The position numbers and the translations under genes are program-made. Shown here one piece after another: positions 1 through 1,722 of a stretch of DNA of 1,796 bases; within the stretch, counting starts at the first letter, position 1; every line of letters starts with the position of its first letter. Location of the stretch: the NCBI RefSeq assembly GCF_003334255.1, contig NZ_QOWU01000149.1; one strand, 5' to 3'. The notes below the pieces were generated by a model. It worked only from the letters and a program-made list of their open reading frames with translations, had not been told where the DNA came from and ran no database searches. The DNA comes from Escherichia coli (GTDB lineage: Bacteria; Pseudomonadota; Gammaproteobacteria; Enterobacterales; Enterobacteriaceae).

Positions 1-74
1 TGTGTGAGTTCCGGCTGAATTTGTGGGGAGCGGAGTTTGCGGCGTTCTTACAGTGTAAGCAGTAGGAAAACCGC

Positions 75-96
75 GACGGGGACGAAAGTCCCCGTC
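75..96 (+). other. Perfect 9-bp GC-rich stem (GACGGGGAC / GTCCCCGTC) with GAAA tetraloop; RNA structural element of unknown role in the leader of the first ORF
   Basis: Read directly: 75-83 gacggggac, loop 84-87 gaaa, 88-96 gtccccgtc are exact reverse complements. No U-tract follows on the + strand (aactggttgc), so it is not a canonical intrinsic terminator. It sits 11 nt upstream of a GAGG Shine-Dalgarno at 108-111. Confidence 0.55.
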
Positions 97-121
97 AACT
101 GGTTGCTGAGGTTCAGCCGAT

Positions 122-523
122 ATGGCACCCGTTTCAGGTGAGAGAATGGACGACAGAATTCTCCGGTATATGCAGCGTGTTGTGAGAAATTCCCGCAACC
201 CTGAATTTATGAATGAAGTTAAAGACGCCTGCCTTAAAAAGCAGGCGTTTTGCTTTGAAGCGCCGGATGGTTTTCTGGTGCTGCGTTCTGTGCTCAGTGA
301 CGATGGTATCCCTTATGTTCTGGTGTTACTGGGCGTGTGTACGGGGAGTAAGAGTGTTGAGCGTTATCTGCCGGAGGTGAAGACATTAACCCGCCTGGCT
401 GGCGGACGCTGGGCCGAATTTCATACGGCAAGACGAGGATTTATCCGGCTGGGAAAACGTCTGGGCTTTGAGCGAATGCCGGATGATGAGGATGGCTTCA
501 TGGTGTTCAGGATAGCAGTCTGA
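122..523 (+). CDS. Hypothetical protein, 133 aa; C-terminal region has a weak GNAT-like 'KxLGFE' motif (unconfirmed)
   Basis: ORF with ATG at 122 and TGA at 521-523. An in-frame TGA at 107-109 means the start cannot lie further upstream. GAGG at 108-111 is 10 nt before the ATG; an alternative in-frame ATG at 146 is preceded by AGGTGA (136-141). The ORF is followed by an intrinsic terminator. Product unknown. Confidence 0.7.
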   Translation: MAPVSGERMDDRILRYMQRVVRNSRNPEFMNEVKDACLKKQAFCFEAPDGFLVLRSVLSDDGIPYVLVLLGVCTGSKSVERYLPEVKTLTRLAGGRWAEFHTARRGFIRLGKRLGFERMPDDEDGFMVFRIAV

Positions 524-575
524 CTGCCACTGTATTCATCATCGAGCGTAAACCCACATTGCAATTCACATTCTG

Positions 576-598
576 ACCCTGCTCCGGCAGGGTTTTTT
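576..598 (+). terminator. Rho-independent (intrinsic) terminator, + strand
   Basis: Stem CCCTGC (577-582) / GCAGGG (587-592) with 4-nt loop tccg, extendable by an A576:T593 pair, followed by a T6 run (593-598). It lies 54 nt after the stop of ORF 122-523. On the minus strand there is no U-tract after the stem, so it is unidirectional. Confidence 0.8.
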
Positions 599-616: not shown

Positions 617-1273
617 ATGGGCGGAAGTAAAGGTGGTGGTGATACCAAAGTAAAACCAACAGCAGCGCAAATAGCACAGGAAGAGGTGGCCTGGAAAGGG
701 TGGCAGGATTACAAAAATATTCTCCGTCCGGCAGAAGATAACTTCATGAAAAAGGTCGATGACCTTAACAGTGAGCAGCAGTACGAAAATATCGCAGGCA
801 CAACAAATCTTGGGTATCAGAAACAGTTTGGTGAAGCGCGAAGGGAGCTGGCGGGTAATCTTGCTCAGTCCGGCGTTGACCCATCCAGTGGTCGTTTTAA
901 TGCAGTAATGGATGCAAATCAAAGCGACCAGGTGATCGGGCAGATTGACACGACCACACGGGGGCAGGTATCGCAGGCAGATAAATATATTGCCGGGCTA
1001 CAGGATGTTGCGGCTCTCGGTTCCGGTCAGAAGGCAGATGCGTTACAGAGTTTTAACTCGCTGGCAGACAGCAGTCTGGCAAAAGCTAAATCGGACGCAC
1101 AGGCTGCGTTTACGAAACAGCAGGGGCGAGCCTCTCTTGTTGGCGCTGGTCTGGGTGCGGTTGGTGCATATGCGATGCATAAGGCTGGCGGTAGCGGAGG
1201 AAGTGGCGGTGCTAAAACACCTGGCACCGGCGCTAATGCCATTCAGCATCAGGCTCAGAACTGGAGACTGTGA
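617..1273 (+). CDS. Hypothetical low-complexity Gly/Ala/Gln/Ser-rich protein, 218 aa; candidate virion-associated (ejection, pilot or scaffold-like) protein, family not recognised
   Basis: Long ORF with a strong SD (GAGGAG, 5-nt spacer) and ATG start. The N-terminus is MGGSKGGG and the C-terminal region contains AGGSGGSGG. A hydrophobic Gly-zipper-like stretch ASLVGAGLGAVGAYAM maps to about 1130-1177. No cysteine. The stop TGA (1271-1273) lies 2 nt before the next start. Confidence 0.8.
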   Translation: MGGSKGGGDTKVKPTAAQIAQEEVAWKGWQDYKNILRPAEDNFMKKVDDLNSEQQYENIAGTTNLGYQKQFGEARRELAGNLAQSGVDPSSGRFNAVMDANQSDQVIGQIDTTTRGQVSQADKYIAGLQDVAALGSGQKADALQSFNSLADSSLAKAKSDAQAAFTKQQGRASLVGAGLGAVGAYAMHKAGGSGGSGGAKTPGTGANAIQHQAQNWRL

Positions 1274-1275
1274 TT

Positions 1276-1722
1276 ATGGAGTACGGTAAATACGAAACTC
1301 TCGCAAGGGCTGGTTATTCAGGAGCAGCCCGCCCACAGGGTGACTGGCAGACGTCAGCAGCGCTGACACGCCAACAATACGACGACTGGCGAACCAGATA
1401 TTTGCCCCGCGTGGCAAGGCTGGCTGACCTTGGCGAGAACAACAGCCTGATGAATGCGCAGCTTGCCCGGGTGGGCGGCCTTGCCACTTCCAGTCTCCGT
1501 ACAGCGCAGATGGCGCAGGATAACCAGATGGCACGATATGGCGTTAACCGACCTGATAATCCCAACAGTAATACGCTGGGGTTACGTAATGCCCTGGCAA
1601 TTGCTGGCGCGAAAAATGGTATCCGTGAAGCAGAGCAGGATCGTCAGATGAACATACTGACGGGGGCTTCTGCACCTGCAAGACAGCAACTGAGTGTTGG
1701 CGGACAACTGGTGTCAGCGTAA
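1276..1722 (+). CDS. Hypothetical protein, 148 aa from ATG 1276, Ala/Gln/Arg-rich and cysteine-free; translationally coupled to the upstream gene
   Basis: GGAG at 1263-1266 is 9 nt upstream of ATG 1276. The six-frame track starts at GTG 1270, but that leaves only a 3-nt spacer to the SD, so ATG 1276 is preferred. Stop TAA at 1720-1722. The upstream stop and this start form ...GTGATTATG..., typical of coupled genes. Confidence 0.75.
   Translation: MEYGKYETLARAGYSGAARPQGDWQTSAALTRQQYDDWRTRYLPRVARLADLGENNSLMNAQLARVGGLATSSLRTAQMAQDNQMARYGVNRPDNPNSNTLGLRNALAIAGAKNGIREAEQDRQMNILTGASAPARQQLSVGGQLVSA

What the first reader, a model, noticed from the sequence alone, without database searches (positions are those of the whole stretch)
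75..96. Perfect 9-bp GC-rich hairpin with GNRA (GAAA) tetraloop in the leader of the first ORF
A 9-bp perfect inverted repeat around a GAAA tetraloop is very unlikely by chance in 1.8 kb. It lacks a following U-tract, so it is not a standard terminator. Possible roles are a 5' mRNA stability element, a protein-binding or processing site, a Rho-dependent or attenuator structure, or the 3' end structure of an upstream gene (a frame-3 reading frame ends at TAG 63-65).
Basis: seen in the sequence. Interest (0 to 1): 0.4.

Follow-up and report, generated by a model that had tools for sequence, protein, structure and literature searches.

The report
Hok toxin mRNA 3' protective hairpin
The hairpin is real, but it belongs to the upstream gene: it is the conserved stem-loop in the 3' untranslated region of a small Hok-family toxin mRNA carried by a Shiga-toxin phage, a well-known kind of element that in the plasmid R1 model stops 3' trimming of the toxin mRNA and protects its active form.

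Summary
Window 75-96 is a perfect 9-bp stem (GACGGGGAC/GTCCCCGTC) with a GAAA loop, -18.2 kcal/mol, and no U-tract on the + strand. Chance alone is not negligible: 2.7% of shuffled windows hold one.

The window is the tail-gene region of a 933W-like Stx phage. The frame ending at TAG 63-65 is a 46-aa Hok/Gef toxin (Pfam E 4.7e-8) that starts 75 nt upstream of the window.

The hairpin sits 9 nt after the hok stop. Bases 113-130 are complementary to the predicted hok mRNA 5' end, as in the tac/fbi end-pairing of hok mRNAs. R1 hok and the phage's other locus, hokW, fold the same way.

The ~355-nt module recurs at 76-83% identity in P2-like and lambda-like prophages, a chromosomal site and plasmids. 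Similarity stops right after base 130.

Across 28 distinct 3' UTRs the stem is paired in every sequence. Four of nine pairs show compensatory double changes, and wobbles fit the + strand.

In R1 the equivalent stem-loop blocks PNPase/RNase II trimming and stabilises the truncated, translatable mRNA. I infer the same role here.

It is not a leader element of ORF 122-523. It is a new member of a known kind, and of low interest.

The parts
1..65 (+). 3' part of the hok-family toxin ORF. The full ORF is 46 aa and starts 75 nt upstream of the window, at L002 5925. The stop codon TAG is at 63-65.
   Evidence: ORF. Pfam HOK_GEF PF01848, E 4.7e-8. phrog_251 'MokW-like host killing', E 2.8e-24. RefSeq names it 'Hok/Gef family protein' in homologous loci. 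30% identity to R1 Hok, sharing the SLCE-R and AAF motifs.
69..73 (+). 5' arm (AACCG) of the outer helix below the hairpin. It pairs with 100-104.
   Evidence: Predicted. 96% of cells are paired across 28 distinct sequences, and pair 73/100 alternates G-C and G.U.
75..96 (+). The reported hairpin: a 9-bp stem with a GAAA loop. It is interpreted as the 3' terminal stem-loop (exonuclease road-block and stabiliser) of the truncated, active hok mRNA.
   Evidence: Sequence. -18.2 kcal/mol. 100% paired, with 4 of 9 pairs carrying double changes. Variants are listed. The position is equivalent to the R1 hok stem at +342..+359 and to the hokW stem. The R1 function comes from PMC1635323 and PMC9841398.
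100..104 (+). 3' arm (TGGTT) of the outer helix.
97..130 (+). The 3' tail that would be removed by 3' trimming, if processing follows the R1 model. It runs from the base of the hairpin to the end of the fbi element.
   Evidence: Inferred by analogy with the 39-nt tail removed from R1 hok mRNA (398 to 361 nt; PMC1635323). Not shown for this locus.
113..130 (+). fbi-like element TCAGCCG-ATAT-GGCACCC. It is complementary to the predicted hok mRNA 5' end, GGGUGCC-UUU-CGGCUGA (L002 5778-5794, upstream of the window). Sequence similarity to hok modules in other contexts ends at base 130.
   Evidence: 5'/3' end pairing appears in the minimum-energy fold of the whole mRNA (z -6.3) and in all 11 homologues folded.

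Best explanation
The hairpin at 75-96 is the 3'-UTR terminal stem-loop of a hok-family type I toxin mRNA. The hok cassette is inserted between lom and the tail/virion genes of a 933W-like Shiga-toxin phage.

Shown here:
- The ORF ending at TAG 63-65 is a Hok/Gef toxin.
- The hairpin lies 9 nt after its stop codon.
- Bases 113-130 pair with the predicted mRNA 5' end (tac/fbi-type end pairing).
- The cassette, from 5' end to fbi, moves as a unit between genomic contexts.
- The stem is maintained by compensatory changes, and its wobble pairs fit the + strand RNA.

Inferred from the plasmid R1 paradigm:
- The full-length mRNA is locked and untranslatable through the 5'/3' pairing.
- 3'-to-5' exonucleases (PNPase, RNase II) slowly remove the tail 97-130.
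- They stop at the base of this very stable GC-rich GNRA hairpin.
- The 5' end is then released and refolds, giving a long-lived, translatable toxin mRNA that can be targeted by the antisense antitoxin. Its 3' end is protected by the hairpin.
For: - Toxin identity: Pfam HOK_GEF, E 4.7e-8; phrog_251; sub-threshold HokA and Hok NCBIfam hits; RefSeq 'Hok/Gef family protein'.
- 5' UTR: Rfam sok RF01794 aligns over its full length at L002 5778-5936, + strand, E 1e-5, though below the gathering score.
- Whole-mRNA fold: -150.3 kcal/mol, z -6.3, with 5'/3' end pairing and the hairpin kept. The same is seen in 11 of 11 homologues.
- Same architecture in intact R1 hok (398 nt) and in the phage's other locus hokW. 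In each, the toxin stop is followed after 8-9 nt by a GC-rich stem-loop, then 17-29 nt, then the fbi.
- The cassette is found at 76-83% identity after ogr in P2-like prophages, between J and a tail fibre gene, next to the L31B gene, and on IncI1, IncHI2 and IncF plasmids. Similarity starts at GGGTGCC and ends at GGCACCC.
- Covariation: 28 distinct 3' UTRs, stem 100% paired, 4 of 9 pairs with changes on both sides. The score is 0.213 against 0.101 for shuffles (0 of 500 reach it), and slid controls give 27-61% paired.
- Strand: 10 G.U cells against 1 A.C cell, which points to the + strand RNA.
- Loops are GNRA in 26 of 28 distinct sequences: GAAA, GAGA, GCAA or GUAA, counting L004, whose stem is 10 bp around a GCAA loop.
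- A decayed copy with a broken hok ORF has lost the hairpin (L014).
- R1 experiments: the stem-loop is described as the 'road-block' to 3' trimming by PNPase and RNase II, taking the mRNA from 441/398 nt to 361 nt (PMC1635323). 19 of 22 loss-of-toxicity substitutions in the 3' UTR break a C-G pair of this stem, and the truncated mRNA is absent in the G345A and C358A mutants (PMC9841398). Both positions map inside the R1 stem in L099.
Against: - No transcript data for this locus were available, so promoter use, 3' ends and processing are inferred.
- The Stx-phage copy lacks the intrinsic terminator that follows the fbi in R1 and in the P2-like copies. The next terminator-like site is at 575-594. 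The primary transcript therefore probably does not end bluntly at the fbi, and trimming would have to cross a translated gene or follow an endonucleolytic cut.
- No overlapping mok frame with a conserved start codon exists in this subfamily.
- No sigma-70 consensus promoter was found for hok or for an antisense Sok, and the Rfam sok hit is below threshold.
- Predicted exposure of the hok Shine-Dalgarno sequence rises only slightly after in-silico truncation, from 0.00 to 0.00-0.36.
- Chromosomal hok loci are often reported to be inactive (cited in bioRxiv 10.1101/2025.08.07.668861).
Confidence: 0.8

Rival explanations
1. Vestigial element. The hairpin descends from a hok 3' stem-loop, but the cassette is silent or inactive in this phage, so the hairpin has no present function there.
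For: There is no terminator after the fbi in the Stx-phage context. There is no conserved mok frame. No consensus promoter was detected. Chromosomal hok loci have been reported as unable to mediate killing (citing earlier work).
Against: The toxin ORF is intact in all Stx-phage copies. Stx-phage-type copies keep the stem: their variants differ only by loop changes or single substitutions that preserve G.U pairing. In L003 the UTRs are almost identical while the toxin is only 54% identical, which argues for selection on the RNA elements or their recent exchange. A copy that really is decayed (L014) lost the hairpin quickly.
Confidence: 0.1
2. Leader element of the downstream gene (ORF 122-523). 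On this view the hairpin stabilises the 5' end of that mRNA or regulates its translation.
For: It lies 26 nt upstream of the annotated ATG at 122. The fbi overlaps that ATG, and a small hairpin at 105-117 covers the GAGG at 109-112.
Against: The hairpin accompanies hok in contexts that lack this gene. The hok-less homologue in Aeromonas phage phiARM81mr directly abuts the upstream tail gene. The PHROG 610 profile starts at residue 9, so the real start is probably ATG 146, preceded by AGGTGA at 136-141 and lying beyond the hok module. No promoter was found between the hairpin and the ORF.
Confidence: 0.04
3. Transcription terminator or attenuator. It would act either on the minus strand (hairpin followed by CGGTTTTCC) or as a U-less pause or partial terminator for hok or late transcripts on the + strand.
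For: The pattern scan lists it as terminator-like on the minus strand. In R1 the equivalent hairpin is followed by UUUU.
Against: All annotated genes within 6 kb on either side are on the + strand, so there is nothing to terminate on the minus strand. The minus-strand T-run is only 4 T after a 3-nt gap, and shrinks to 3 T in most homologues (GGAAACC on the + strand). The wobble pairs fit the + strand and would be A.C mismatches on the minus strand. On the + strand AACTGG follows, with no U-tract, in all members of this subfamily.
Confidence: 0.04
4. Chance inverted repeat, or a duplex-DNA protein-binding palindrome.
For: 2.7% of shuffled windows contain a perfect hairpin of equal size.
Against: Compensatory changes keep the pairing while the sequence changes, at 4 of 9 pairs and across several genomic contexts. 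A sequence-specific DNA site would conserve sequence rather than complementarity. G.U tolerance indicates RNA.
Confidence: 0.02

Closest known systems
Terminal 3' stem-loop of hok mRNA in the hok/sok system of plasmid R1 (stem at +342..+359; the 3' end of the 361-nt truncated hok mRNA)
   Same: It is a GC-rich stem with a tetraloop beginning 9 nt after the toxin stop codon. It lies upstream of an fbi element that pairs with the mRNA 5' end, and it is embedded in a strongly structured mRNA of 350-400 nt. In R1 it acts as the road-block for PNPase and RNase II trimming, and it is needed for accumulation of the truncated active mRNA (PMC1635323; PMC9841398).
   Different: - The stem sequence is unrelated: GGCGGGC-GCAG-GCCCGCC in R1.
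- The R1 stem is followed by UUUU; here there is no U-run.
- The tail to be removed is about 34 nt here, against 39 nt in R1.
- R1 has a terminator right after the fbi and a mok leader frame. The Stx-phage copy has neither.
- The toxins share only 30% identity.
hokW-sokW of Sakai prophage 5 / 933W (Takada et al. 2021, PMC8621323)
   Same: It is in the same phage family and has the same mRNA architecture: a GGGUGC 5' end, a post-stop hairpin GCGGGGGA-GUAA-UCUCCCGC with a GNRA loop, and an fbi CCUCAACGCACCC. [quoted passage not shown]
   Different: It is a different locus: AP000363 at about 57.5-57.8 kb on the minus strand, against about 44.6-44.9 kb on the + strand for this one. It encodes a different toxin (MKQQKAM..., 51 aa). 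The locus in the window has not been characterised experimentally in anything I found.
Chromosomal and prophage hok homologues of E. coli (hokA-E; the closest NCBIfam model is HokA)
   Same: They are Hok/Gef toxins with conserved mRNA folding elements. Homologues of this cassette occur in 1750 of 5426 complete E. coli genomes.
   Different: The HokA equivalog score is 38.4 bits against a cut-off of 89, so this is a separate subfamily of 45-46 aa toxins.
Generic 3' stem-loops that protect bacterial mRNAs from 3'-to-5' exonucleases (for example REP-stabilised mRNAs, or terminator hairpins)
   Same: A stable GC-rich hairpin at or near an mRNA 3' end that blocks PNPase and RNase II.
   Different: Here the hairpin is internal to the primary transcript and defines a regulated processing end-point that switches the mRNA from an inert to an active form. 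It is not a repeated element.

Membership tests
[quoted passage not shown] | Encodes a Hok/Gef-family small membrane toxin | tested here: met
   Pfam PF01848, E 4.7e-8, covering model positions 6-42 of 42. phrog_251, E 2.8e-24. The NCBIfam HokA and Hok hits are significant but below the curated cut-offs.
[quoted passage not shown] | The 5' end (tac) is complementary to a 3' element (fbi), closing the full-length mRNA | tested here: met
   GGGUGCC-UUU-CGGCUGA pairs with UCAGCCG-AUAU-GGCACCC (window 113-130). This appears in the minimum-energy fold and in 11 of 11 homologues. The 5' side is nearly invariant, so the 3' side varies only through wobble-compatible changes, and there is no two-sided covariation.
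[quoted passage not shown] | A stable stem-loop between the toxin stop codon and the fbi, forming the 3' end of the truncated mRNA | tested here: met
   Window 75-96, 9 nt after the TAG. It is 100% paired with compensatory changes. The position is equivalent in R1 and hokW.
[quoted passage not shown] | An overlapping mok leader reading frame whose translation is coupled to hok | tested here: not met
   An overlapping open frame with a start codon exists in L002 but not in L001, L003, L005, L006, L009, L010 or L013. A conserved GAGG like the mok Shine-Dalgarno sequence is present, but no conserved start codon follows it. This lowers strict R1-type membership; it does not lower hok-family membership.
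[quoted passage not shown] | A cis-antisense Sok RNA gene overlapping the hok 5' UTR | tested here: inconclusive
   Rfam RF01794 'sok' aligns over its full length at L002 5778-5936, but scores 35.6 bits against a gathering score of 59. No sigma-70 consensus promoter was found on either strand. This region lies upstream of the window.
[quoted passage not shown] | Refolding of the 5' end (tac/ucb) after removal of the 3' tail | tested here: inconclusive
   In the predicted truncated RNA the 5' end re-pairs with GGAAAGGCCCC at +49..+59, as the model expects. The predicted exposure of the Shine-Dalgarno sequence changes little, however.
[quoted passage not shown] | 3' exonucleolytic processing that stops at the base of the stem-loop | not testable with these tools
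   This needs 3' end mapping in wild-type, pnp and rnb backgrounds.
[quoted passage not shown] | An intrinsic terminator just downstream of the fbi | tested here: not met
   It is present in R1 and in the P2-like and other copies, but absent in the Stx-phage context. There the next gene follows directly, and the next terminator-like site is at 575-594.
Rho-independent (intrinsic) terminator | A GC-rich hairpin immediately followed by a U-tract on the transcribed strand | tested here: not met
   On the + strand AACTGG follows, and the site is not listed by the scan. On the minus strand the scan lists it with the tail CGGTTTTCCT, but the T-run is short, offset, and reduced to TTT in most homologues. 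No minus-strand gene converges on it.
Any curated Rfam family at the hairpin itself | A covariance-model match covering 75-96 | tested here: not met
   cmscan with E up to 1 over L002 5000-8000 gave no match overlapping L002 6075-6096.

The most novel reading that the evidence does not exclude
In 933W-like Stx phages this hok cassette has lost both its own terminator and a mok frame, and it abuts the next virion-region gene. Its fbi overlaps the annotated ATG at 122.

If the cassette is active, hok RNA would have to be carved out of longer transcripts, including Q-antiterminated late transcripts. The hairpin would then be the exonuclease stop that directly generates the active, fbi-less toxin mRNA.

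That would tie Hok production to lytic late transcription, as a lysis-assisting 'second holin' like the one reported for hokW. It could also couple translation of the downstream gene to the hok mRNA conformation.
Probability: 0.12. Interest if true: 0.5.

Novelty: new member of a known kind. Interest (0 to 1): 0.17.

Why it matters
The main value is correct annotation. A striking hairpin that looks like a leader element of a phage structural gene is in fact part of a toxin-antitoxin cassette, and it marks the likely 3' end of the active toxin mRNA.

933W/Sp5-type Shiga-toxin phages thus carry two hok-family loci, and only hokW-sokW has been studied. The second locus may contribute to prophage retention or to the timing of lysis and Stx release, which is why 3' end mapping and stem mutagenesis would be worthwhile.

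The comparative data add an independent, covariation-supported example of the hok 3' road-block stem-loop, with a strong preference for GNRA loops. Beyond that, the element is an ordinary member of a well-understood system.

Tried and rejected
- Chance: shuffling gives 2.7%, which is not decisive alone. Chance is rejected because of the covariation.
- Terminator on the + strand: rejected, as there is no U-tract.
- Terminator on the minus strand: flagged by the scan but rejected on gene orientation, a weak and unconserved T-run, and the strand bias of the wobble pairs.
- Leader of ORF 122-523: rejected using hok-containing contexts that lack the ORF and the hok-less Aeromonas phage homologue.
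- Identity with the published hokW-sokW: tested with the paper's primer sequences and rejected. That locus lies about 13 kb away on the other strand.
- Rfam: no family covers the hairpin. There is only a sub-threshold sok hit on the 5' UTR and some chance-level hits.
- Search for a conserved mok frame: none found.
- Search for consensus promoters for hok or Sok: none found, so the Sok part stays unresolved.
- In-silico truncation to test unmasking of the Shine-Dalgarno sequence: the 5' end refolds as expected, but the accessibility change is small and inconsistent.
- The first R1-type hit fetched (L095) was cut by IS150 at its 5' end, and L096 was disrupted by IS elements. An intact copy (L099) was used instead.
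- PMC1370018 (Gultyaev et al. 2000, on hok covariations) is not held in the library.

Full report
**1. The observation**

Window 75-96 reads GACGGGGAC-GAAA-GTCCCCGTC: a perfect 9-bp stem with a GAAA loop, exactly as reported.
- On its own it folds at -18.2 kcal/mol.
- It is retained in the fold of 60-125 (z -3.8).
- An outer 5-bp helix, 69-73 with 100-104, extends it across an internal loop.
- No U-run follows on the + strand.
53 of 2000 dinucleotide-preserving shuffles of the window (2.7%) contain a perfect hairpin of 9 bp or more with a 3-8 nt loop.

**2. Where the window comes from**

The window is 99.8% identical to Escherichia phage PhiR5_2 and 94-95% identical to about 180 Stx-converting phages of the 933W / VT2-Sakai type. 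It lies downstream of lom, at the start of a run of genes of unknown function, all on the + strand. The second of these weakly matches a virion structural protein family, phrog_8003.

**3. The upstream frame is a Hok toxin**

The frame that ends at TAG 63-65 starts 75 nt before the window (L002 5925). It encodes a 46-aa peptide, MSQKSLITVTICMTVIFTIWMLHGSLCEFRLNLWGAEFAAFLQCKQ. The evidence that it is a Hok toxin:
- It matches Pfam HOK_GEF (E 4.7e-8) and phrog_251.
- It gives significant but sub-threshold NCBIfam HokA and Hok hits.
- It shares the SLCE-R and AAF motifs with R1 Hok.
- RefSeq calls the homologues 'Hok/Gef family protein'.
- The Rfam sok model (RF01794) aligns end-to-end over the region from L002 5778 to the hok start. 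Its E-value is 1e-5, but the score is below the gathering threshold.

**4. The hairpin is part of a hok mRNA architecture**

The sequence at L002 5778-5794, GGGUGCC-UUU-CGGCUGA, is complementary to window 113-130, UCAGCCG-AUAU-GGCACCC.
- The 353-nt RNA between these two ends folds at -150.3 kcal/mol (z -6.3). Its two ends are paired, and the 75-96 hairpin is intact.
- This is the layout of hok mRNAs. A 5' 'tac' element pairs with a 3' 'fbi' element, and a stem-loop sits between the toxin stop codon and the fbi.
- I checked this on real sequences rather than from memory. An intact R1-type hok (L099 228-625, 398 nt) folds with the same end pairing and a post-stop stem at +342..+359.
- The phage's other hok locus, hokW, does the same. 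Its stem-loop is GCGGGGGA-GUAA-UCUCCCGC.
- In all three loci the stem starts 8-9 nt after the stop codon.

**5. The hairpin travels with hok, not with the downstream gene**

Cassettes 76-83% identical over their whole length occur in several unrelated settings:
- after ogr in P2-like prophages;
- between gpJ and a tail fibre gene in a lambda-like prophage;
- next to the L31B gene on a chromosome;
- on IncI1, IncHI2 and IncF plasmids.

Similarity begins at GGGTGCC and stops immediately after GGCACCC (window 130). In total, 1750 of 5426 complete E. coli genomes hold a copy.

The downstream ORF (phrog_610) has only one hok-less relative, in Aeromonas phage phiARM81mr. There it directly abuts the preceding tail gene, with no leader at all. 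The PHROG profile also begins at residue 9 of ORF 122-523. The real start is therefore probably ATG 146, preceded by AGGTGA and lying outside the cassette.

**6. Covariation**

From the annotated loci and 80 IMG/VR loci I obtained 31 distinct 3' UTRs, which gave 28 distinct rows in the alignment.
- The 9-bp stem is paired in 100% of cells. Five pairs never vary and four show changes on both sides.
- The stem variants are GACGGGGAC/GTCCCCGTC, GACGGGGAG/CTCCCCGTC, GACGGGGGA/TCCCCCGTC, GACGGGGAAG/CTTCCCCGTC, AGCGGGGAC/GTCCCCGCT and GGCGGGGGAG/CTTCCCCGCC.
- The covariation score is 0.213, against 0.101 for shuffles (0 of 500 reach it). Sliding the partner columns drops pairing to 27-61%.
- These sequences are related, so the shuffle control is not a probability. 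The slid controls and the several distinct double changes are nonetheless clear.
- Non-Watson-Crick cells are 10 G.U against 1 A.C, which fits the + strand RNA and not the minus strand.
- Loops are GNRA in 26 of 28 distinct sequences, counting L004, whose stem is 10 bp around a GCAA loop.
- A decayed copy in E. albertii, with a broken hok ORF, has lost the hairpin.

**7. Mechanism**

What the R1 literature establishes:
- Full-length hok mRNA (441 or 398 nt) is folded blunt-ended through 5'/3' pairing. It is inert to both ribosomes and Sok.
- PNPase and RNase II slowly remove the terminal 39 nt.
[quoted passage not shown] This form refolds, is very stable, is translatable and binds Sok (PMC1635323).
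- Deep mutational scanning found 22 loss-of-toxicity substitutions in the 3' UTR. Nineteen of them break a C-G pair of this terminal stem, and the truncated mRNA is absent in the G345A and C358A mutants (PMC9841398).
- Using the paper's numbering, both positions fall inside the stem of L099, and position 361 lies 2 nt past it.

What I infer for the window:
- Positions 97-130 are the removable tail.
- Positions 75-96 are the road-block and 3' protector of the active toxin mRNA.
- In silico, an RNA ending just after the hairpin re-pairs its 5' end with GGAAAGGCCCC at +49..+59, which is tac/ucb-like. The predicted change in Shine-Dalgarno accessibility is small.

**8. Differences and caveats**

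- This subfamily has no conserved mok frame.
- No consensus promoter was detected for hok or for an antisense RNA.
- Unlike R1 and the P2-like copies, the Stx-phage copy has no terminator after the fbi. The next terminator-like site is at 575-594. How a discrete 3' end would arise in this phage is therefore unknown, and the cassette could be partly vestigial.
- The published hokW-sokW system of Sp5 is a different locus, about 13 kb away on the other strand.
- I found no experimental work on the locus in the window.

**9. Verdict**

The feature is real and conserved, and it is explained: it is the 3' terminal stem-loop of a hok-family toxin mRNA.

It is a new member of a known kind, and interest is low (0.17). 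The most novel reading still open is that the hairpin carves active toxin mRNA out of late phage transcripts, which would link Hok production to lysis. I put that at about 12%.

Noticed in passing
AP000363 (VT2-Sakai) about 57.5-57.8 kb, minus strand = L097 453-839; compare window = AP000363 44777-46572: 933W/Sp5-type Stx phages carry two separate hok-family loci. The experimentally studied hokW-sokW (51-aa toxin, MKQQKAM...) is not the one in the window. The window's locus (46-aa toxin) seems uncharacterised, and some records label it 'MokW-like host killing'.
   Followed up: yes
window 122-148: The annotated start of ORF 122-523 (ATG 122) lies inside the hok fbi element (ATGGCACCC). The PHROG 610 profile begins at residue 9, and the Aeromonas phage homologue is shorter at its N-terminus. 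ATG 146, preceded by AGGTGA at 136-141, is therefore the more likely start, and the first 8 codons may be an annotation artefact.
   Followed up: partly
window 575-594: A terminator-like hairpin, GACCCTGCTCCGGCAGGGTT followed by TTTTGTT, lies on the + strand between ORF 122-523 and ORF 617-1273. It is the first plausible intrinsic terminator downstream of the hok cassette in this phage.
   Followed up: no
window 225-248: A second perfect 8-bp inverted repeat, ACGCCTGC / GCAGGCGT with an 8-nt A/T-rich loop, lies inside ORF 122-523. The scan flags it as terminator-like on both strands. Its function is unknown.
   Followed up: no
L002 5822-6007 and homologues: An overlapping mok-like frame with a start codon is present in PhiR5_2 but absent in most homologues, including the close Stx phage 75/02. 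This hok subfamily therefore appears to lack a conserved mok. A conserved GAGG like the mok Shine-Dalgarno sequence remains at L002 5859-5862.
   Followed up: partly
L003 (E. coli SJ3 prophage, same lom-hok-ORF context): The toxin is only 54% identical to the window's Hok, while the 5' and 3' UTRs (hairpin, fbi) are almost identical. The cassette is mosaic, with its RNA elements more conserved than the peptide.
   Followed up: partly
L004-L008, L011, L012 and many IMG/VR loci (for example L057, L060, L065, which end right after the hok stop codon): In P2-like prophages the same cassette sits just after ogr, at the very edge of the predicted prophage. There it is followed, 15-25 nt after the fbi, by a proper terminator (CCCGCAGCGTAAAAACTGCGGGTTTTC) that the Stx-phage copy lacks.
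   Followed up: partly
L014 (E. albertii plasmid pEA5_1): This is a decayed copy. The hok ORF carries an internal deletion, and both the post-stop hairpin and the fbi are lost.
   Followed up: no
L095 1-290 and L096 (flanks): R1-type hok loci on IncF plasmids are often cut by IS elements. IS150 removes the 5' half of the hok mRNA leader in pMB3565_1, and ISKpn28 and IS421 flank the Raoultella copy.
   Followed up: no
window 617-1722: ORF 617-1273 (phrog_611, with a weak match to a virion structural protein family) overlaps the next ORF by 4 nt (GTG 1270), or sits 2 nt before ATG 1276. ORF 1276-1722 (phrog_596) is followed by a small gene annotated 'bacteriocin' in some records. The Aeromonas phage phiARM81mr has the same gene order.
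   Followed up: no
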